A stretch of DNA of 64,000 nucleotides from positions 1 through 64,000 of the IMG/VR virus record IMGVR_UViG_3300042294_004068. One strand, written 5' to 3'. Of this stretch, positions 6,368 through 27,868 are shown one piece after another. A program made the position numbers and the translations under genes. The notes below the pieces were generated by a model. The model did not search any database, was not told where the DNA came from, and saw only the letters and a program-made list of their open reading frames with translations. The stretch comes from a virus. Within the stretch, counting starts at the first letter, position 1. Each line of letters begins with the position of its first letter.

Positions 6368-8410
6368 GTGAGTATCGCTTTCTCTTTTTCACTATCAAAA
6401 GATTTCGTAGCAACATATAAAGAGAAGAAAGCGCCATTTGGTTATCGCGATGCTGGTGGAAACTCCGTTGGTGAAATTACATTCCTTCGCACTTACTCTC
6501 GTAAGAAAGAAGATGGAACTAAAGAGACTTGGGCTGAAGTCTGCGAGCGCGTAACCAACGGTACATACTCACTTCAAAAAGATTACGCAAAGTCTCAACG
6601 TCTTCCTTGGAACGATGCAAAGGCACAATCCTCTGCTAAAGAATTTTTTGATCGCCTATTCAACTTGAAGTGGACTCCACCAGGACGTGGACTTTGGGTT
6701 ATGGGTACAAGCATTGTCAACGTACAGAAGAACTCTGCTGCACTTCAAAACTGCGCATTTGTTTCTACTGCAGAGATGACAAAGAACAACCCAGCAAAAC
6801 CATTTGCATTTCTTATGGAAGCATCAATGCTTGGCGTTGGTGTTGGCTTTGACCAAGTAGGTGCAGACAAGGACTTCACTATTTATGAGCCACAAGGTGA
6901 AGAGGCTTACGTTATCCCTGACACTCGTGAAGGATGGCAGGAGTCAACCGTTGCACTTATTAACTCTTTCCTTAAGGAAGGACAGAAGGCTCTAGTTTTT
7001 GATTACTCAGAGATTCGTCCATACGGTGCACCTATTGCAACCTTTGGTGGAACAGCATCTGGTCCAGACCCACTCATCCTTCTTCACGATGTTATTCGCA
7101 AGATGTTCACTGGTCGTGCAGGTGGCAAGCTCACACGCACAGATATTGCAGATATTGGTAATTTGATTGGTCGTTGTGTAGTCTCGGGCAATGTTCGTAG
7201 AAGCGCAGAAATCCTCATTGGTGACATCAATGACGAAGACTTCCTCAACCTCAAAAATGCAGAGCGTTTCCCTGAGCGCAACTCATACGACCCAGAAAAT
7301 CCAGGGTGGGGTTGGATGTCAAACAACTCAGTCGCAGTTGAAGTTGGAACTGACTTCAACCCAATCATTGATGGAATTGTCCGCAATGGTGAGCCTGGCG
7401 TTATCTGGATGGATACGTCTCGTCAGTACGGAAGATTGGCAGACCCAATCAATAACAAAGACTGGCGAGTCGCAGGTTACAACCCTTGTGCAGAACAGTC
7501 TCTCGAATCATATGAAATGTGTACGCTCGTTGAAACTTACCTCAACCGTCACGACTCACTCGAAGACTACAAGCGAACACTCAAGTTTGCTTACCTCTAC
7601 GCCAAGACTGTAACTCTTCTCCCAACGCACTGGGAAGAGACAAACGCAATCATGCAGCGTAACCGTCGCATTGGTACATCTATGTCAGGTGTTGCAAACT
7701 TTGCAGATACAAAAGGTCTTCCAGTTCTACGTAAGTGGATGGACGAAGGCTATGCAGTTGTGAAGAAGTATGACGAGGTTTACTCAGAGTGGCTTGGAGT
7801 TCGTGAGTCAATTAAGACCACAACTGTTAAGCCATCAGGAACAGTGTCAATCCTTGCAGGTGAGTCACCAGGAGTTCACTGGACTCCAGGTGGAAAGTTC
7901 TTTAACCGTGCAATTCGTTTTGGTAACAACGACCCAATGCTTCCGTTGTTTAAGATGGCTAACTACACAGTTGAACCTGCATCAGAGTCACCAGAGACAA
8001 CATCAGTTGTTTACTTCCCAATCAAGTCAGATGCAGAGCGTGCAGAAAAAGACGTTACCATCTTTGAAAAGATGTCACTTGCTGCAATGGCTCAACACTG
8101 GTGGTCAGATAACTCTGTATCTGTCACAGTCTCATTTGATCCCGAGAAGGAAGGCGAGCATGTAGGCACAGTCCTTCACATGTACGACGGACAGCTCAAG
8201 ACTGTTTCATTCCTTCCATCAGGAAACTTTACTTACCCACAGATGCCTTACACACAAATCACCGAAGAAGAATACGAGGCTTCAGTTAACAAGATTTTCC
8301 CAATTGACTTCGATGGTGTTTACGCTGGACTTGCATCTGACGCAATCGGTGAGGCTTACTGCACCACAGATGCTTGCGAGATAAAACTAGTCGTGGAGAA
8401 CAACAAGTAA
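6368..8410 (+). CDS. nrdJ: Class II adenosylcobalamin-dependent ribonucleotide reductase (monomeric RTPR type)
   Basis: PPGRGLW, NCAF, VSGNVRRSA, NPCAEQ, TTVKPSGTVS and C-terminal YCTTDAC motifs. Confidence 0.95.
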   Translation: MSIAFSFSLSKDFVATYKEKKAPFGYRDAGGNSVGEITFLRTYSRKKEDGTKETWAEVCERVTNGTYSLQKDYAKSQRLPWNDAKAQSSAKEFFDRLFNLKWTPPGRGLWVMGTSIVNVQKNSAALQNCAFVSTAEMTKNNPAKPFAFLMEASMLGVGVGFDQVGADKDFTIYEPQGEEAYVIPDTREGWQESTVALINSFLKEGQKALVFDYSEIRPYGAPIATFGGTASGPDPLILLHDVIRKMFTGRAGGKLTRTDIADIGNLIGRCVVSGNVRRSAEILIGDINDEDFLNLKNAERFPERNSYDPENPGWGWMSNNSVAVEVGTDFNPIIDGIVRNGEPGVIWMDTSRQYGRLADPINNKDWRVAGYNPCAEQSLESYEMCTLVETYLNRHDSLEDYKRTLKFAYLYAKTVTLLPTHWEETNAIMQRNRRIGTSMSGVANFADTKGLPVLRKWMDEGYAVVKKYDEVYSEWLGVRESIKTTTVKPSGTVSILAGESPGVHWTPGGKFFNRAIRFGNNDPMLPLFKMANYTVEPASESPETTSVVYFPIKSDAERAEKDVTIFEKMSLAAMAQHWWSDNSVSVTVSFDPEKEGEHVGTVLHMYDGQLKTVSFLPSGNFTYPQMPYTQITEEEYEASVNKIFPIDFDGVYAGLASDAIGEAYCTTDACEIKLVVENNK

Positions 8411-11682: not shown

Positions 11683-12387
11683 ATGGGAAGAAAGTTAATC
11701 AAATTCGGTAAAAGCCACGACTACCCAGACACTCCTATTCCTATTAGGAATGTCGTACCTGACTGGTATAAAAAGTCTCCCCGTTTTATTGATGGTAAAG
11801 AGGCAAGTTACATCAATACAGAAAAAGGGTTACGCCCCAACATTGGCATGAAGATGTGCGTTCCTTTTTTTGATTCAATGATTTCTGGCTATACCGCCAC
11901 ACTTTGGCAAGATGTTCTTGTAACTAGACGTCCTGATGGTTTAAAAACCGAGTGGATAGTTGAACCAATTCCTATGATAGAAAGAAGCGTTCATGGAATG
12001 GAATTGCTGCCAATTCCAGCAGGTCATCATCATACTCAATATGCATGGGTAACACCTTTCTCAATTCAAACTCCACCAGGTTATAGCGTTTTGATTACTC
12101 ATCCATTTAATAGATTTGATTTGCCGTTTACTACTCTTACAGGTATTCATGATTCGGATGCGATTATGCCTCATGGTCATCTTCCGTTTTACATCAAAGA
12201 CAACTTTGAAGGAGTCATTCCTGCTGGAACTCCTATCTACCAAATTTTCCCATTTAAACGTGACAACTGGGACTCAGAGTTTGACCCTTCTTTAGCCGAT
12301 AAAGCAGACAAACGTATGTGGCAAGGTATGACCAAATTGTTTGGTCATTACAAACAAAACGTATGGAAGAAGAAGGAGTACAACTAA
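11683..12387 (+). CDS. Conserved phage protein, DUF6065-like (paralog A)
   Basis: PDWYKK, KMCVPFFD, TPPGYS, GxxDSD and IFPFKR motifs. Confidence 0.7.
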   Translation: MGRKLIKFGKSHDYPDTPIPIRNVVPDWYKKSPRFIDGKEASYINTEKGLRPNIGMKMCVPFFDSMISGYTATLWQDVLVTRRPDGLKTEWIVEPIPMIERSVHGMELLPIPAGHHHTQYAWVTPFSIQTPPGYSVLITHPFNRFDLPFTTLTGIHDSDAIMPHGHLPFYIKDNFEGVIPAGTPIYQIFPFKRDNWDSEFDPSLADKADKRMWQGMTKLFGHYKQNVWKKKEYN

Positions 12388-13952
12388 TGGACCTTCGAGA
12401 TATAAAAGATGTCACTATTTTAGGTGGAGGGACCGCAGGATGGCTTGTTGCTCTCTATGCAAAAACGGTTCTTCCGACAAAAAAAGTAACTCTTATTGAG
12501 TCAGACAAGATTGGCATTCTTGGTGCAGGAGAAGGTTCAACTCCTCAGTTAATTTCATTTTTAGATGTACTTCAAATTCCTATTTCAAAACTTATTCAAG
12601 AAGCAGACGTAACTATAAAAAATGGAATCAAGTTTACAAATTGGAATAATGGTGGAAAGTCAGATTGGTTCTACCACCCATTTGTAGGGTACGGCAACTG
12701 TGCAGCTAGTAACGTATCTCTTGAGAGATATGTTTCAGGAACACCAACAATTTTTGCGGAAGCTGCAAAGTTAAAAGAGTCACAAGATGAGTGGTGTTTT
12801 ATAACTCGCTTATGTGAGCAAAATAAAGTTTCTTTTAAAACAATTCAAAATCAAATGTATTCAGCAGAAGATCCTGTTCTTCAATTTGAAAAAATGGGAT
12901 CTTTTTCTTTACATTTTGATGCTAGGAAGCTGGCAAAAACTTTATCCGAAATTGGTCAAGACAGAGGGATTATTCACGTTGAAGGGGTTGTAGAGGACTA
13001 CACAACTGATGATGAAGGCTATGTAACAACTTTAAAGTTGGAAAATGGAGAGTCTATAAAGACAGACTTTATTTTTGACTGCAGTGGCTTTAAGTCTTTT
13101 TTTAGCAAGAAGTTTAATACTAAGTGGATATCTGCAAAACAACATTTAACAGTTAATGCTGCTATGCCATTTTTTATTGATATGGATTCAGAAATTCCTC
13201 CGTACACAGAAGCTGTTGCAATGAAATACGGTTGGATGTGGATGATTCCTTTGCAGTCTCGCTACGGATGTGGCTATGTCTTCAACAGCGACATGATTGA
13301 TGACGAGCAAGCAAAAGAAGAAATTATTGAGTTCCTTGGCTATGACCCAGAGTGGCCTAGAGAGAAATCATTCTCATGGGAGCCAGGTTATTTAGAAGAG
13401 CCTTGGAAGAAGAATGTCTATACTGCAGGTCTTTCAGCAGGGTTCGTTGAGCCATTAGAAGCAACTTCTATTTGGACAACTATCATTGACTGGACTAGTG
13501 CAATTCTTGGTAACACCGAACTTATGTATATCAAAGACCAAGGTGTTATCGATGATTTCAATGCTTCGTGGCGTAAAAATCAGGAAGAAGTTATTGGATT
13601 TATTTACGCTCACTACATGAGTGGTAGGACTGATACAGAGTTCTGGAAGCACTACACATACGAGAATGCTCCAGCAAAAGCCAAGCAATACTTAGACATT
13701 AACAACAAGCGAGCTTTTATTGTTAATGACTTTATTGACCACGCATTCTTTGAAATTGATTCATGGTCTTATATTTTGCTTGGCATTAAAAATCAAAAGT
13801 TTATCGATAACCATAAACTCTTTGAGTTTTACAACTTTACTAGAACTTTTATGGAACAAAGATATATTAGTTTTAAAAAGTTAATTCAAACCGTTGCAGA
13901 TTTTGAAGCAGTCAGTCATAAAGAGTTCCTAGAGAGAATGAAAGAACAGTAA
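12387..13952 (+). CDS. prnA: Flavin-dependent (tryptophan halogenase family) halogenase
   Basis: GGGTAG, GAGEGST, catalytic K in TIKNGIKF, WMWMIP and FVEPLEATSI. Confidence 0.9.
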   Translation: MDLRDIKDVTILGGGTAGWLVALYAKTVLPTKKVTLIESDKIGILGAGEGSTPQLISFLDVLQIPISKLIQEADVTIKNGIKFTNWNNGGKSDWFYHPFVGYGNCAASNVSLERYVSGTPTIFAEAAKLKESQDEWCFITRLCEQNKVSFKTIQNQMYSAEDPVLQFEKMGSFSLHFDARKLAKTLSEIGQDRGIIHVEGVVEDYTTDDEGYVTTLKLENGESIKTDFIFDCSGFKSFFSKKFNTKWISAKQHLTVNAAMPFFIDMDSEIPPYTEAVAMKYGWMWMIPLQSRYGCGYVFNSDMIDDEQAKEEIIEFLGYDPEWPREKSFSWEPGYLEEPWKKNVYTAGLSAGFVEPLEATSIWTTIIDWTSAILGNTELMYIKDQGVIDDFNASWRKNQEEVIGFIYAHYMSGRTDTEFWKHYTYENAPAKAKQYLDINNKRAFIVNDFIDHAFFEIDSWSYILLGIKNQKFIDNHKLFEFYNFTRTFMEQRYISFKKLIQTVADFEAVSHKEFLERMKEQ

Positions 13953-21423: not shown

Positions 21424-22176
21424 ATGGCTAAAGACAACAGCGACGAGATAGTCGTATATTGGGGACCAATTTTTGAAATTTACCCTGATACTTACATCGA
21501 CTGGAATATTTTTTATCAAGACCCAATAGAGGTCTTGCCAGAGTTTAAAAAACAAAAAGACAAAGGTGCTAAGCAAGAAAGTCTTATCTATTGCCCAGCT
21601 TTTAACTCCAACTACAAAAATACTTTTATGATAAATAATGTAACAGATAGTAAGTTTGTTTACAACAATCAGGAGGGTATGTGGGAGATACCAAATAAGT
21701 ATCAAATTCATCCAGCTAAATCTAAAGTTAGAACTCCATACATTGTAAATAGGCATCCATTGATGCTTTCAATGGCTTGGCTATTTGTTGCAGAAGAGAG
21801 CCTTGAGATGGAGATGATTGCCCCCTACCTACACAGAACCGAAGCTTCCAAGTATGGAGTTATTGGAACAGGTAAGTTTGACATTGGTAAGTGGTTTAGA
21901 CCAGTTCACGCAGAGTACCTACTGTGGGAAGGTGTAGAACACATGCACATTTCTGAAGGCGAGCCTATGTTTTATGTCAGGTTTAACACAGACAAAAAAG
22001 TTGTTTTAAAAAGATTTGTCAACAATGAAGAGATTTTTAAGCGTACTGTTTCTATAGTAGAAACTAAATATATTTTTGGTAAATTTCCTCCTTTAGAAAG
22101 ACTTTACGACTATTTTGCTAAAACAAGAACAAAAGATGTAATGCTAAAAGCCATCAAAGAGTCTGTGATTGATTAA
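21424..22176 (+). CDS. Conserved phage protein, distant relative of paralogs A and B
   Basis: CPAF, GKFDIGKWFRP and GEPMFY; leaderless TATGAT + 6 nt sets start. Confidence 0.65.
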   Translation: MAKDNSDEIVVYWGPIFEIYPDTYIDWNIFYQDPIEVLPEFKKQKDKGAKQESLIYCPAFNSNYKNTFMINNVTDSKFVYNNQEGMWEIPNKYQIHPAKSKVRTPYIVNRHPLMLSMAWLFVAEESLEMEMIAPYLHRTEASKYGVIGTGKFDIGKWFRPVHAEYLLWEGVEHMHISEGEPMFYVRFNTDKKVVLKRFVNNEEIFKRTVSIVETKYIFGKFPPLERLYDYFAKTRTKDVMLKAIKESVID

Positions 22177-22628
22177 TGGAATCTTCAGCGCTTATTGAAC
22201 TTGAGAGGATGTTCAAGCAGAACAAAGTTGGATTTACTGCCTCATGCTTTGACTTACTTCATGCAGGGCACATTTTGATGCTTGAAGAGGCAAAAACCGT
22301 CTGCGATCACTTAATAGTTGCCCTGCAGACTGACCCAAGTATTGATAGACCCGAAAAGCGCAAGCCAATCCAATCTTTAATTGAGCGTCAGATTCAGTTA
22401 AAAGCAGTTAGTTATGTAGATGAGATTGTTGTTTATGAGACCGAGGAAGACCTACTCAACCTATTAAAAACCCTGCCTATTGATGTTCGTATCATCGGGG
22501 AGGACTACGCAGGTAAAGACTTCACAGGACGCGACTGGTGCGCAACTCACGGTATAGAAATTTATTACAATAGTAGGAAGCACGAATACTCTTCAACGGA
22601 GTTGATAGAGCGTATCCGAAAGGGTTGA
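22176..22628 (+). CDS. tagD: Glycerol-3-phosphate cytidylyltransferase family
   Basis: FDLLHAGH (HxGH), GEDY and SSTELIERI. Confidence 0.85.
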   Translation: MESSALIELERMFKQNKVGFTASCFDLLHAGHILMLEEAKTVCDHLIVALQTDPSIDRPEKRKPIQSLIERQIQLKAVSYVDEIVVYETEEDLLNLLKTLPIDVRIIGEDYAGKDFTGRDWCATHGIEIYYNSRKHEYSSTELIERIRKG

Positions 22629-22629
22629 A

Positions 22630-22845
22630 ATGAATTACAGAAGTATTGAAGCTGGCTCAATAGCTCAAGGGTGGGGAAGTTTTACTGCTCCAGCTTTAGA
22701 TGACGCTGTAACTCTATCTATTACTACTAAGTGTCCAGAAAAGTGGCTTCTTGTTGATAGAGAGACTGGACAGGTCTACCAAGGTTCTTCTGAAGTAAAT
22801 CCTTACATGTCTTCACAATACTTGTGGAAACCGATAGACTCTTAG
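22630..22845 (+). CDS. Conserved phage hypothetical protein
   Basis: TKCPEKWLLVDRETGQVY. Confidence 0.65.
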   Translation: MNYRSIEAGSIAQGWGSFTAPALDDAVTLSITTKCPEKWLLVDRETGQVYQGSSEVNPYMSSQYLWKPIDS

Positions 22846-22869: not shown

Positions 22870-23331
22870 ATGAGAAAAGTTGTAGTAGGTATTGCTTTAA
22901 TTGTTTTATCACTTGGAACTCTTGTTTTTACTCAGCAATCAAAAGCAGATTGCGCAGAACTTTACATAGACTATGGCCCGCTTAACGGTGGTGCAAAAAC
23001 AACTCAGTGCATTCCTGTAGAGGGAGAGATACCAGCTCTTGAGTTTTTAAAGCTTGCTAACGTTGATATCGAAGGCACTCAAAAGTATGGAAATGCTGTT
23101 GTTTGCCGAGTCAATAACTATCCAGACAGCTCTATGGAAACTTGTGAAAGTATGCCACCAGAGAAAGCGTACTGGGCAGTTTTGTATAAAGAGCATGACC
23201 ATTTCTTAAATCCATTTGATTTAGTTGGTGAATGGGGATGGGCTCAAACAGGTATTGACCAAATCCCAATTCATAATGGGGATGGGATTGCTCTTGTGTT
23301 TGCTAACAATGGAGAGGTTAAATTCCCGTGA
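22870..23331 (+). CDS. Secreted/anchored SCO2322/DUF4430-like putative cobalamin-binding protein
   Basis: Signal/TM; VCRVNNYP..C..MPP..AYWA...W.WAQTG pattern. Confidence 0.55.
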   Translation: MRKVVVGIALIVLSLGTLVFTQQSKADCAELYIDYGPLNGGAKTTQCIPVEGEIPALEFLKLANVDIEGTQKYGNAVVCRVNNYPDSSMETCESMPPEKAYWAVLYKEHDHFLNPFDLVGEWGWAQTGIDQIPIHNGDGIALVFANNGEVKFP

Positions 23332-23486
23332 AAACTCTAACGCGTCCTACTGACATTATTTCTGGCGAGCAGACTAAGGCAACTCTATGGGTGCAGTTTG
23401 CAGTAACACTTGGTTTTAACGCGGTAGGGCTTTACGTTTCTCATCAAATTACGCTACACGTGTGGCGTGCCATGACAGGACACTAA
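23328..23486 (+). CDS. 52-aa single-TM peptide with His residues (not in ORF track)
   Basis: GGAGAGG SD; GTGA and TAATG overlaps with both neighbours. Confidence 0.65.
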   Translation: MKTLTRPTDIISGEQTKATLWVQFAVTLGFNAVGLYVSHQITLHVWRAMTGH

Positions 23487-24055
23487 TGGTAAACCTCACT
23501 CGCATCTATACCAAGACTGGCGATGATGGCACCACATCTCTCGGAGATATGAGCCGTACATCTAAGAATGACCCACGCCTTGAGGCTTTTGCAACTGTAG
23601 ATGAGGCTAACTCTTTTATTGGTGTTGCTATGTTGCATGTAGAGAGTCGAGAGATAAAGACTCTTCTTCTTCGTATTCAAAATGAGTTGTTTGATGTTGG
23701 TGCTGATTTGTGCACTCCTGTAGTAGAAAACCCAACAACTGAAGCCCTTCGAGTTACCGAGAAACAGATTTACTATATTGAGACTCAGATTGACTATTAC
23801 AACTCATTTTTAGACCCCCTGCGTTCTTTTGTACTTCCATCAGGAACTTCTAGTTCTAGCCATCTCCATGTTGCACGTACAGTTGTTCGTCGTGCAGAAA
23901 GAGCAACATGGCATGCAATACATCAGTTTGGTGATGGAGTAAATCTTTTGACTGCTCGTTATTTAAATAGGTTGTCAGACCTTCTTTTTGTTATGGCTCG
24001 ATACGAAAACCGTTCAGTTGGAGATTCTCTTTGGGAAGCAGGTAGGGATAGATAA
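23486..24055 (+). CDS. pduO: ATP:cob(I)alamin adenosyltransferase, PduO type
   Basis: IYTKTGDDGTT, VDEANS, QNELFDVGADL, ARTVVRRAER and YLNRLSDLLF. Confidence 0.95.
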   Translation: MVNLTRIYTKTGDDGTTSLGDMSRTSKNDPRLEAFATVDEANSFIGVAMLHVESREIKTLLLRIQNELFDVGADLCTPVVENPTTEALRVTEKQIYYIETQIDYYNSFLDPLRSFVLPSGTSSSSHLHVARTVVRRAERATWHAIHQFGDGVNLLTARYLNRLSDLLFVMARYENRSVGDSLWEAGRDR

Positions 24056-24165
24056 TGGCAGCTAAATCAGCTAGAGTTACAAACGACAAAAGAAACAACG
24101 GAAAAGCTTTTAAGAAGTATCCAAAAAAGTTTGATCAAACTAAGAGAAGATTAGTTACAGCATAG
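24055..24165 (+). CDS. 36-aa basic peptide (not in ORF track)
   Basis: TAATG coupling to pduO; MAAKSARVTNDKRNNGKAFKKYPKKFDQTKRRLVTA. Confidence 0.5.
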   Translation: MAAKSARVTNDKRNNGKAFKKYPKKFDQTKRRLVTA

Positions 24166-24172
24166 TTAAACT

Positions 24173-24247
24173 GCCCTGATAGCTCAGTGGTAGAGCATTC
24201 GCCTTGTAAGCGAAGGGTCGTCAGTTCAATCCTGACTCGGGGCTCCA
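24173..24247 (+). tRNA. tRNA-Thr(TGT)
   Basis: Cloverleaf; acceptor GCCCTGA/TCGGGGC, anticodon loop CT-TGT-AA, encoded CCA. Confidence 0.95.
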
Positions 24248-24255
24248 CATTTCAA

Positions 24256-24326
24256 TCCCTGTTCGTCTAACGGCAAGACGCCGCCCTTTGGAGGCGGTTA
24301 TCGTGGTTCGAATCCATGACGGGGAG
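24256..24326 (+). tRNA. tRNA-Gln(TTG)
   Basis: Cloverleaf; TCCCTGT/ACGGGGA, CT-TTG-GA, GTTCGAATC; no encoded CCA. Confidence 0.93.
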
Positions 24327-24327
24327 C

Positions 24328-26686: not shown

Positions 26687-27868
26687 ATGTTGCGTAACCT
26701 CAGCGAGCTATTCCTAGCAGCTACTCTCCTAATTTATGTTGTTCCATACATTATTTGGAAAGTCTTTAAAACTGACAACTTTGTCCCACTACCAATTATT
26801 CAGATTATCTCTGGCCTTCTCCTAGGCCCAGCAGTTCTTGGCTCTCTACACCCTGAGTTCTTCAACTACTTATTTACTAAAGACAATATCAATGTCTTGA
26901 GTGGAGTGGCGTGGCTTGGCATTATCTTTTTTGTTTGGTCAGCAGGAGTTCACCTAGATATAAAAGCAGCCTTTACAAATAAGAAAGACACCTTCACAAC
27001 AGCATCACTAGCCTTAACTGGCCCTCTAGTTTTTGGTTCTATCTTTGCTTTTATTATCTATGACCGAGGTCCTTGGGCAGGAGAACAGGCAGCAACTTGG
27101 CAGTTTGTTCTTGCTGTGGGTATGGGCATGGCTGTAACAGCGCTACCAATTTTGGTTTTGTTGATGGAAAAGCTTGGCATTTTTAATGGACCTATAGGAA
27201 GAAGAGTCCTAACTTATGCAAGCTTAGATGATATTTTTATTTGGGTTGTTTTAGGCATAATCATTATGGATTGGGATAGGTCTTTACGACAGCTAATCTT
27301 CCTTCCAATTTTTGCTTTGGCAGCCTACGGCTTAAACGCATTAGTAAAGACTCTTAAAAACAAACAAGACATCTGGTACATAACAATTGTTTGGACTATT
27401 GCAGTTGCTCTTGCTGCAGACTGGTCAGGATTGCACTACATCGTAGGTGGCTTTATGGCTGGTGCAGTAATGAAGAAGGAGTGGTTTGAAGAAAAGCAAC
27501 TCGAGGTCTTCAAAAACACAGTCTTAATTTTGATGATGCCTACATACTTCTTACTAACTGGTTTAAGGACCAGTTGGGAAGTAAGCGGTATTGCAGTTCT
27601 TCTCTTGGCTCTTGGTTTGTTTGCTGTTCAGTTTGCTGGAAAGACTACTGGTGTTTTTGTGGCAAGCAAGATTCTAGGTTGGCCTAAGGGCGAGTGGAAA
27701 CTTATGGGCACTTTGCTTCAGACAAAGGCTCTTATAGAAATCATATTTGCTACGATTCTTTTGGATAAAGGCATCATCACAGCGGACATGTTTACAGCTC
27801 TCTTGCTTATGGCTGTACTCAGTACGATGGTGACGATACCGATAGCCAGAAAGCTTTTAAAAGCTTAA
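26687..27868 (+). CDS. Cation:proton antiporter (CPA2 / Na+/H+ exchanger family)
   Basis: About 12 TMs; GLLLGP, AVTALPIL, ASLDD and GGFMAG. Confidence 0.88.
   Translation: MLRNLSELFLAATLLIYVVPYIIWKVFKTDNFVPLPIIQIISGLLLGPAVLGSLHPEFFNYLFTKDNINVLSGVAWLGIIFFVWSAGVHLDIKAAFTNKKDTFTTASLALTGPLVFGSIFAFIIYDRGPWAGEQAATWQFVLAVGMGMAVTALPILVLLMEKLGIFNGPIGRRVLTYASLDDIFIWVVLGIIIMDWDRSLRQLIFLPIFALAAYGLNALVKTLKNKQDIWYITIVWTIAVALAADWSGLHYIVGGFMAGAVMKKEWFEEKQLEVFKNTVLILMMPTYFLLTGLRTSWEVSGIAVLLLALGLFAVQFAGKTTGVFVASKILGWPKGEWKLMGTLLQTKALIEIIFATILLDKGIITADMFTALLLMAVLSTMVTIPIARKLLKA

What the first reader, a model, noticed from the sequence alone, without database searches (positions are those of the whole stretch)
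22870..24055. Phage-encoded cobalamin capture-and-activation operon that could feed the phage's own B12-dependent RNR
Seen: three translationally coupled genes (GTGA at 23328-31, TAATG at 23484-88) encode an exported Cys-containing protein, an unannotated 52-aa single-TM peptide with three His residues near its C-terminus, and a clear PduO adenosyltransferase. The genome also carries class II nrdJ at 6368. Known: NrdJ needs adenosylcobalamin and PduO makes it; SCO2322/DUF4430-type surface proteins accompany actinobacterial cobalamin ECF transporters; CbtB is a small His-tailed TM peptide. Inference: the phage scavenges B12 at the host surface and adenosylates it for dNTP synthesis in a B12-poor host.
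Basis: partly seen in the sequence, partly recalled or inferred. Interest (0 to 1): 0.88.

Follow-up and report, generated by a model that had tools for sequence, protein, structure and literature searches.

The report
Phage vitamin B12 capture-and-activation cassette
An uncultured phage of actinobacteria carries three coupled genes (a membrane-anchored protein folded like the B12-binding half of human transcobalamin, a tiny conserved membrane peptide, and the enzyme that makes coenzyme B12) that most likely secure the cofactor for the phage's own B12-dependent enzyme for making DNA building blocks.

Summary
Three overlapping genes sit at 22870-24055. gpA has 153 aa, an N-terminal hydrophobic anchor and four invariant Cys. 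gpB has 52 aa and one TM helix. The third gene is a clear PduO adenosyltransferase. The genome's only detected RNR is a class II, RTPR-type NrdJ (6368-8410).

gpA has no Pfam hit, but its AlphaFold model matches only cobalamin-binding beta domains: transcobalamin, intrinsic factor, haptocorrin and the chain 3u7z, at Z 10-11. The next fold scores Z 6.4. Distant cellular homologs are all actinobacterial. They sit beside ECF transporter genes, and seven of 21 loci examined have a cobalamin riboswitch next to the gene.

gpB is a real family with an invariant W-R-x-x-x-G-H end. It is not CbtB, and only the terminal His is conserved.

In relatives the cassette lies directly behind nrdJ, as nrdJ-gpA-gpB-pduO with overlapping genes. 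No record has a class I RNR subunit. Related nrdJ phages without the cassette are common, so it is an accessory.

The closest published analogues are the Lactobacillus nrdJ-cbrS-cbrT-pduO cluster and ECF systems with split transcobalamin-like proteins. B12 binding is untested, and one such system is reported to import heme.

This scan has flagged the same cassette before, on other phage genomes.

The parts
22870..23331 (+). gpA: 153-aa protein with an N-terminal hydrophobic anchor or signal (residues about 2-21) and an extracytoplasmic domain (about 26-148). The domain has the beta-domain fold of transcobalamin, intrinsic factor and haptocorrin. Four Cys are invariant (C28, C47, C79, C92).
   Evidence: ORF and sequence. 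79 metagenome homologs and alignment A1. AF2 model with pLDDT 84.8. Foldseek top 16 hits and VIA-align Z 10.0-11.1 only to cobalamin-binder beta domains and 3u7z. No Pfam, PHROG or NCBIfam hit.
23328..23486 (+). gpB: 52-aa single-TM peptide. Its GTG start overlaps the gpA stop, and its TAA stop overlaps the PduO ATG. The C-terminal motif is W-R-x-x-x-G-H-stop.
   Evidence: 222 metagenome homologs of 40-54 aa, none with a Pfam domain.
23486..24055 (+). PduO-type ATP:cob(I)alamin adenosyltransferase, 189 aa from the ATG at 23486.
   Evidence: PF01923 at E 3.4e-60. TIGR00636 at 176.3 bits against a cut-off of 108.45. PDB 2g2d/6wgs at E 9e-59, full length, with the N-terminal TKTGDDGTT motif aligned.
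6368..8410 (+). NrdJ: monomeric class II (RTPR-type) adenosylcobalamin-dependent ribonucleotide reductase. It is the presumed consumer of the cofactor. Here it lies 14.5 kb upstream of the cassette; in many relatives it is directly adjacent.
   Evidence: PF17975 and PF21995. TIGR02505 at 353.2 bits against a cut-off of 340.05. Adjacency in relatives.

Best explanation
The three genes form an accessory cofactor-supply module for the phage's class II ribonucleotide reductase.

gpA is exported or anchored in the host membrane, with a transcobalamin-beta-like domain on the outer face. There it captures cobalamin or another corrinoid. gpB is a single-pass peptide, probably N-in/C-out, whose invariant WRxxxGH end lies at the outer membrane surface. 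It acts with gpA, for example as an anchor, as an adaptor to the host importer, or as part of the binding site.

The phage encodes no transporter of its own, so the corrinoid would enter through a host importer, probably of ECF type. In the cytoplasm the phage PduO adenosylates cob(I)alamin with ATP, and the resulting adenosylcobalamin loads NrdJ for dNTP synthesis during replication.

Shown here: gene structure and coupling, PduO and NrdJ family membership, the gpA fold, and the conserved linkage of gpA-gpB with PduO and nrdJ.

Inferred: corrinoid binding by gpA, the topology and partnership of gpB, use of a host importer, and the benefit to the phage.
For: (1) Fold. The AF2 model (pLDDT 84.8) matches only cobalamin-binder beta domains and 3u7z: Foldseek ranks 1-16, Z 10.1-11.1 with rmsd 2.4-3.0 over 92-96 residues. 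In an independent all-against-all search only 5 of 48,161 chains reach Z>=8, all of that family, and the next scores Z 6.4.

(2) Cellular homologs. All 12 found in the genome collection are Actinomycetota. They precede EcfT (CbiQ), a double ABC ATPase and an ECF S-component, and in Aurantimicrobium they lie next to metH. A cobalamin riboswitch lies upstream on the same strand in 6 of 21 loci examined, and on the opposite strand next to the gene in one more. Five such genomes lack CbiC, which argues for corrinoid import rather than cobalt import. One homolog also carries a weak Cobalamin_bind (alpha-domain) hit.

(3) Linkage. gpA, a small ORF and PduO occur in that order in 66 of 80 viral loci. 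nrdJ lies directly upstream of gpA in 27-32 of 80 viral loci and in 57 of 74 metagenome loci, 48 of which carry the full four-gene block. In a complete 134-kb genome with terminal repeats all four genes overlap. Gene order varies (nrdJ-PduO-gpA in L119, PduO-gpA in L073) but the linkage persists. The gpA-gpB pair stays next to nrdJ even where PduO has moved 19 kb away.

(4) Co-occurrence. PduO is in 39 of 41 records. An RTPR-type nrdJ is in every record at least 71% complete. The class I small subunit is in 0 of 41. gpA and PduO are jointly absent from 25 records that carry a 76-85% identical nrdJ, so they behave as one unit.

(5) No ABC ATPase or ECF S-component was found in the phage genome.

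(6) A published bacterial precedent has the same logic: the nrdJ-cbrS-cbrT-pduO cluster of L. delbrueckii (PMC5997447).
Against: There is no experimental or residue-level evidence that gpA binds B12. Sequence-level membership in DUF4430 fails: there is no Pfam hit for gpA, and only 2 of 55 family members give sub-threshold hits.

An ECF system with split transcobalamin-like exported proteins in L. sakei is reported to take up heme (bioRxiv 10.1101/864751), so the fold does not fix the ligand.

The alpha domain, which forms half of the binding site in transcobalamin, is missing from the phage.

Many phages with nearly the same NrdJ lack the cassette, so NrdJ does not need it.

The host and its importer are unidentified. 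The N-in/C-out topology of gpB rests on a weak charge bias.
Confidence: 0.62

Rival explanations
1. Only PduO serves NrdJ. gpA-gpB capture a different tetrapyrrole, such as heme, cobinamide or another incomplete corrinoid, rather than complete cobalamin.
For: The L. sakei Lsa1836-1840 ECF system has beta- and alpha-transcobalamin-like exported proteins, and its deletion lowers heme uptake. ECF-CbrT also transports cobinamide. The fold match alone does not fix the ligand (notes).
Against: gpA-gpB sit between nrdJ and pduO with overlapping reading frames in most relatives. They stay next to nrdJ even without PduO. Cellular homologs lie behind cobalamin riboswitches. No heme-dependent function is evident in the cassette.
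Confidence: 0.12
2. gpA-gpB are not nutrient capture. They act at the cell surface against other phages or against the host. For example, they could mask or compete with the host's own surface B12-capture protein or importer (superinfection exclusion), as phage T5 Llp blocks FhuA.
For: gpA is a diverged copy (30% identity or less) of a host surface protein family. It is made during infection and comes with a membrane peptide that was not found in the cellular genomes sampled. Vitamin receptors are classic phage receptors; that point is my own knowledge.
Against: Exclusion genes have no reason to be translationally coupled to nrdJ and pduO across several NrdJ clades. gpA and PduO are gained and lost together.
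Confidence: 0.08
3. The cassette is a recently acquired host fragment (a moron) with no role in infection, and the 52-aa ORF is incidental.
For: Cellular homologs of gpA and PduO exist, and PduO is closest to a corrinoid adenosyltransferase among solved structures. The cassette is absent from many related phages.
Against: At least 125 viral contigs carry gpA. gpB has 222 homologs with an invariant motif, and its reading frame and overlapping stop/start are kept at 23-83% identity to this copy. The cassette occurs with three NrdJ clades (about 76-96%, 64% and 30% identity to this one). gpA is only about 30% identical to the nearest cellular protein.
Confidence: 0.04

Closest known systems
[quoted passage not shown] 2009; Santos et al. 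2018, PMC5997447)
   Same: The logic and gene order match: a class II RNR, two uptake-related genes, then a PduO adenosyltransferase, in a B12 auxotroph. In many relatives of this phage the block is nrdJ-gpA-gpB-pduO.
   Different: In the bacterial cluster the uptake gene characterised there, cbrT, encodes a membrane-embedded ECF S-component. The phage instead has a surface beta-domain protein plus a 41-57-aa single-TM peptide, and no S-component, EcfT or ATPase. The cassette is carried by a virus. In this window nrdJ is displaced 14.5 kb.
Beta (C-terminal) domain of transcobalamin, intrinsic factor and haptocorrin, and the bacterial chain 3u7z (R. gnavus RUMGNA_00854), which is the size of one such domain
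   Same: The fold matches: Z 10.0-11.1, rmsd 2.4-3.0 A over 92-96 residues, covering the whole domain.
   Different: Identity is 10-20%. There is no Pfam DUF4430 hit. There is no alpha (toroid) domain. gpA has an N-terminal membrane anchor or signal, four invariant Cys, and an obligatory small membrane partner.
Actinobacterial and Firmicute ECF-type operons with exported transcobalamin-like proteins (for example L. sakei Lsa1836-1840; actinobacterial operons behind cobalamin riboswitches; the Pfam 'SCO2322' family named by the ESM Atlas)
   Same: gpA's only cellular relatives belong to these operons. They are surface-tethered, and several are lipoproteins.
   Different: The phage copy has no lipobox, keeps only the beta-like protein, and adds gpB, which was not found in 406 actinobacterial genomes searched. 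The L. sakei system is reported to import heme. PF28005 is not in the local Pfam, so that membership is untested.
Phage-encoded substrate-binding proteins that feed host transporters (cyanophage PstS) and phage cobalamin-related genes (cobS/cobT of cyanophages and 'cobaviruses') - from my own knowledge and PMC6775973 as listed
   Same: The strategy is the same: the virus supplies the capture or maturation step and relies on the host's membrane machinery.
   Different: The nutrient differs (a vitamin cofactor rather than phosphate), the protein folds differ, and here capture and activation genes are coupled to the consuming enzyme.

Membership tests
PduO-type ATP:cob(I)alamin adenosyltransferase (PF01923 / TIGR00636) | Profile match above the curated cut-off over the full domain | tested here: met
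   PF01923 at 203.4 bits (cut-off 24), positions 1-170 of 171. TIGR00636 at 176.3 bits (cut-off 108.45).
PduO-type ATP:cob(I)alamin adenosyltransferase (PF01923 / TIGR00636) | N-terminal ATP-binding motif T-(K/R)-x-G-D-x-G-x-T, and full-length similarity to solved enzymes | tested here: met
   YTKTGDDGTTSL aligns with YTRTGDDGTTGL of 2g2d/6wgs, E 9e-59 over residues 2-189. That this motif defines the family is from my own knowledge.
PduO-type ATP:cob(I)alamin adenosyltransferase (PF01923 / TIGR00636) | Adenosyltransferase activity | not testable with these tools
   Needs an enzyme assay or complementation.
Class II (RTPR-type) adenosylcobalamin-dependent RNR | Equivalog profile above cut-off, plus the class II insertion domain | tested here: met
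   TIGR02505 at 353.2 bits against 340.05. PF21995 at E 1.1e-15 and PF17975 at E 3.5e-31.
DUF4430 (PF14478) / transcobalamin beta domain | Sequence profile match to PF14478 | tested here: not met
   No Pfam family at E<=0.1 for gpA. Only 2 of 55 family members give sub-threshold hits, the best at E 0.0033. A profile search of PDB sequences finds nothing relevant.
DUF4430 (PF14478) / transcobalamin beta domain | The three-dimensional fold of the beta domain | tested here: met
   Z 10.0-11.1 to 2bb6, 5no0, 2pmv, 4kkj/4kki and 3u7z. These are the only chains with Z>=8 among 48,161.
DUF4430 (PF14478) / transcobalamin beta domain | Binding of cobalamin or another corrinoid | not testable with these tools
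A binding assay is needed.
SCO2322 family (PF28005, Pfam 38.1) | Profile match | not testable with these tools
   The family is absent from the local Pfam copy. The only lead is an ESM Atlas neighbour cluster at score 0.86 in which 32% of members carry PF28005.
CbtB (PF09489) small cobalt-transporter subunit | Profile match | tested here: not met
   No hit at E<=0.1 for gpB, and none in the whole phage genome at E<=10.
CbtB (PF09489) small cobalt-transporter subunit | Conserved His-rich C-terminal tail | tested here: not met
   Only the terminal His is invariant, and 27 of 38 distinct gpB peptides have a single His.
ECF-type vitamin importer | S-component, EcfT and EcfA/A' ATPases encoded in the element | tested here: not met
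   The phage genome has no ABC_tran match above cut-off and no ECF_trnsprt match. These genes flank the cellular homologs only.

The most novel reading that the evidence does not exclude
gpA and gpB together form a two-piece, membrane-tethered 'mini-transcobalamin'. The beta-like domain of gpA would grip the nucleotide face of the corrinoid. The invariant extracytoplasmic W-R-x-x-x-G-His end of gpB would take over the role of the missing alpha domain, for example by giving a His ligand or cap to the cobalt (my recollection that a transcobalamin alpha-domain His does this was not checked). gpB would also dock the loaded complex onto a host importer. That would be a virus-specific vitamin-capture device with no cellular counterpart for gpB. 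Two variants hint that this end is the functional part: one lineage ends in Cys (WRVVTCNC), and another carries the motif inside a loop between two TM helices.
Probability: 0.15. Interest if true: 0.85.

Novelty: new variant of a known kind. Interest (0 to 1): 0.74.

Why it matters
Phages are known to carry B12-dependent RNRs, yet how they secure the scarce cofactor in B12-auxotrophic hosts has hardly been addressed. The papers my searches turned up describe neither a virus-encoded vitamin-binding surface protein nor this cassette.

If the reading is right, viruses of abundant actinobacteria actively pull a keystone vitamin into infected cells and activate it. That would add a viral term to B12 budgets and give a new example of viruses plugging capture proteins into host transporters.

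The system is small: a 130-residue ectodomain plus a roughly 45-residue peptide. It is widespread, with at least 125 viral contigs. It can be tested directly with binding assays and with heterologous expression in a B12 auxotroph. It also gives gpB, a large family of unannotated micro-proteins, a testable role.

Tried and rejected
Searches that found nothing:
- DNA and protein searches of cultured-phage records. There was no DNA match and no gpA match. PduO appeared in only 15 records, mostly unannotated fragments.
- Sequence-profile searches of gpA families against PDB and Pfam, which gave only chance hits.
- BFVD viral structure library: no match with E<=0.001.
- Rfam on the window: only two tRNAs and no riboswitch.
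- The promoter/terminator scan found no more sites than chance. The TTCACA-17-TAGACT site at 22812-22840 is only a candidate.

CbtB reading of gpB: rejected.

Cellular counterpart of gpB:
- None in 5 genomes that carry a gpA homolog.
- 4 of 401 sampled genomes gave weak hits confined to the TM part, inside large ORFs, which I judge spurious. One of them, G068, is an unpublished genome, and nothing here rests on it.
- No WRxxxG[HC] motif in a sensible ORF near the bacterial homologs.
- An earlier scan note says that acI/Nanopelagicales hosts carry the gpA-gpB pair behind a B12 riboswitch. I could not reproduce this. All metagenome loci found through the gpB motif that had upstream DNA were phage-type, with nrdJ upstream. 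The one small-genome order I tried holds only 8 genomes, none with a match.

Flanking genes (cytidylyltransferase-like, the 71-aa ORF, DUF6065) are conserved only in the closest relatives, so they are not part of the module.

BtuH: my recollection that it is a DUF4430 protein was not borne out by the paper, so I dropped it.

Full report
**What the window is.** The window is the first 64 kb of a 110,921-bp IMG/VR virus record that CheckV estimates to be 83% complete. It encodes a T4-type large terminase, collagen-like fibre proteins and other phage genes. The part outside the window holds two WhiB genes. WhiB matched only Corynebacterium among the 14 control genomes. The only cellular relatives of gpA are in Actinomycetota. 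GC content is 38-48%.

**Observation.** The three ORFs and their overlaps are exactly as described.
- GTGA at 23328-31 joins the gpA stop to the gpB start.
- TAATG at 23484-88 joins the gpB stop to the PduO start.
- A GGAGAGG stretch lies about 11 nt before the GTG of gpB.
- PduO is unambiguous: PF01923 at E 3.4e-60, and TIGR00636 at 176 bits against a cut-off of 108. It matches the solved corrinoid adenosyltransferases 2g2d/6wgs at E 9e-59 over its full length, including the N-terminal TKTGDDGTT motif. That alignment fixes its start at the ATG at 23486 rather than the GTG at 23462.
- nrdJ at 6368-8410 passes the equivalog cut-off for the monomeric adenosylcobalamin-dependent RTPR type.
- No class I small subunit, no B12-binding Rossmann domain (PF02310), no ABC ATPase and no ECF S-component was found in the whole record.

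**gpA.** It has no hit in Pfam, PHROGs or NCBIfam. It belongs to a family of about 150-residue proteins in metagenomes:
- 79 clusters at 90% identity;
- 170 representatives at 50% identity with E<=0.001;
- at least 125 viral contigs.

The family has an N-terminal hydrophobic segment without a lipobox and four invariant Cys. With this alignment AlphaFold2 gives a confident model, with pLDDT 84.8 and above 90 over most of residues 30-100. Three structure searches agree:
- Foldseek ranks 1-16 are 3u7z (a short R. gnavus chain), transcobalamin, its isolated beta domain, and intrinsic factor.
- VIA-align gives Z 10.1-11.1, rmsd 2.4-3.0 A over 92-96 residues for these and haptocorrin, then drops to Z 6.4 for generic beta-grasp proteins.
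- A search that does not depend on Foldseek finds only five chains with Z>=8 among 48,161, all from this group.

Sequence-level membership in PF14478 is not met.

**Cellular relatives and the B12 link.** The twelve genomic loci with a gpA relative are all actinobacterial: Aurantimicrobium, Knoellia, Pedococcus, Marmoricola and several MAGs.
- In Aurantimicrobium the homolog is a lipoprotein. Its gene overlaps a fused EcfT-double-ATPase gene, followed by a membrane protein, and metH lies next door.
- In Knoellia it follows a gene with a weak SQHop_cyclase_C hit (E 3.7e-4), a family of alpha/alpha-toroid proteins, and precedes EcfT, a double ATPase and an ECF S-component.
- Rfam finds a cobalamin riboswitch upstream on the same strand in six of 21 bacterial loci, and on the opposite strand beside the gene in a seventh.
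- Five of these genomes have no CbiC, a core corrin-synthesis marker. Cobalt import for de novo synthesis is therefore an unlikely purpose.
- One 918-aa homolog also has a weak hit to the eukaryotic cobalamin-binding alpha domain.
- About 6% of a 301-genome sample of the class has a gpA relative.
- High-GC versions are stand-alone lipoproteins.

**gpB.**
- A small ORF fills the gpA-PduO gap in 66 of 80 viral loci.
- The motif W-[RK]-x-x-x-G-H-stop occurs in 72 of 80.
- Thirty-eight distinct peptides of 41-57 aa share one hydrophobic stretch (mean Kyte-Doolittle 1.77 over 19 residues). The N-terminal flank is more positive (+1.9 against +0.6), and 6-15 residues follow the best 19-residue hydrophobic window. 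This suggests an N-in/C-out topology, but the charge bias is modest.
- Only W46, R47, G51 and the terminal H52 are invariant.
- A profile search finds 222 homologs of 40-54 aa, none annotated.
- There is no CbtB match.
- Two informative variants exist. One lineage ends in ...WRVVTCNC. Another replaces gpB with a Cys-rich micro-ORF plus an 80-aa protein with two hydrophobic segments, which carries WRFYNGH between them. This places the motif outside the membrane.
- I found no cellular gpB.

**Linkage with nrdJ and PduO.**
- In the 134-kb record with terminal repeats (100% complete), nrdJ, gpA, gpB and pduO follow one another with overlapping stops and starts.
- nrdJ lies directly upstream of gpA in 27-32 of 80 viral loci.
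- It does so in 57 of the 74 metagenome loci retrieved through the gpB motif, and 48 of these show all four genes.
- The arrangement occurs with NrdJ proteins that are about 80%, 76%, 63% and 29% identical to this one.
- Gene order is sometimes shuffled, but the genes stay together.
- Where PduO has moved about 19 kb away, gpA-gpB remain next to nrdJ.
- Among 41 records with gpA, 39 have PduO. Every record at least 71% complete has an RTPR-type nrdJ. None has a class I small subunit.
- Conversely, 25 other records (20-89% complete) with a 76-85% identical nrdJ have neither gpA nor PduO.

The cassette is therefore an accessory that is gained and lost as a unit. In the records searched it was never found without the B12-dependent enzyme. 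In this window nrdJ has simply been separated from the cassette by 14.5 kb.

**Mechanism.** I read the module as capture at the outer membrane face (gpA with gpB), entry through a host importer, adenosylation by PduO, and use by NrdJ.

The PduO-to-NrdJ step rests on established biochemistry and on the published reasoning for the Lactobacillus nrdJ-cbrS-cbrT-pduO cluster (PMC5997447).

The capture step rests on fold, on the context of cellular relatives and on linkage. It is inferred, not shown. The main caveats are:
- there is no binding evidence;
- the alpha domain is missing;
- a related split transcobalamin-like ECF system in L. sakei is reported to import heme.

Rivals are another tetrapyrrole ligand, surface masking or exclusion, and an inert passenger. 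The linkage data make each of them less likely.

**Comparison with what is known.** This is a viral variant of known bacterial B12-salvage clusters, and of the viral strategy of supplying a capture protein to a host transporter. The papers my searches turned up describe neither a phage-encoded cobalamin binder nor this cassette. PduO appears in viral surveys only in passing.

**Earlier notes of this scan.** They flag the same cassette on several other phage genomes, with the same reading. From them I took two literature leads, which I read myself. I also took one claim that I could not reproduce: a riboswitch-controlled gpA-gpB pair in acI hosts.

**Scores.** Interest is 0.74. Novelty is a new variant of a known kind. 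Confidence in the full mechanism is 0.62. I put the PduO-NrdJ link alone at about 0.85 and corrinoid capture by gpA at about 0.6-0.65.

Noticed in passing
L037, L038, L046-L049 (for example L046:6456-6865) and L033:5205-5390: These are variant partners of gpA. One lineage has a Cys-rich 39-53-aa ORF plus an 80-aa two-TM protein with an internal WRFYNGH. Another has a 61-aa peptide ending in WRVVTCNC instead of GH. In some of these records PduO lies elsewhere.
   Followed up: partly
window 12318-13952 (+): A 544-aa flavin-dependent tryptophan-halogenase-like protein (PF04820, E 8e-96) encoded in a phage genome.
   Followed up: no
window 26687-27868 (+): A 393-aa Na+/H+ exchanger family membrane protein (PF00999, E 7e-27), an unusual gene for a phage.
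   Followed up: no
G000 (own record) 74161-74364 (-) and 75169-75378 (-), beyond the window: Two WhiB-family genes (E 1.5e-18 and 3.5e-12). They support an actinobacterial host.
   Followed up: partly
window 24173-24247 and 24256-24327 (+): tRNA-Thr(TGT) and tRNA-Gln(TTG) lie directly downstream of the cassette, after a 36-aa basic ORF (24055-24165) whose ATG overlaps the PduO stop.
   Followed up: no
window 22176-22628 (+): A cytidylyltransferase-like protein (PF01467; the PHROG family is named heptose 1-phosphate adenylyltransferase) lies just upstream. It is conserved next to the cassette only in the three closest relatives, so it is not part of the module.
   Followed up: partly
L266 and L268 (metagenome contig B570J29584_1000001, 222,391 bp): The same four-gene block occurs twice, about 112 kb apart, on one contig. 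This is probably a concatemeric or duplicated assembly of a phage genome of about 112 kb.
   Followed up: no
L113-L192 (viral contigs with closely related nrdJ): More than 569 viral contigs encode an RTPR-type NrdJ related to this one. Of the 80 best, only 3 have the cassette within 3 kb, and 25 larger records lack gpA and PduO altogether.
   Followed up: yes
L085:4160-5881 (Knoellia koreensis): The gene upstream of the bacterial gpA homolog has a weak alpha/alpha-toroid (SQHop_cyclase_C) hit. This suggests a split alpha + beta transcobalamin-like pair, as in L. sakei Lsa1839/1840.
   Followed up: partly
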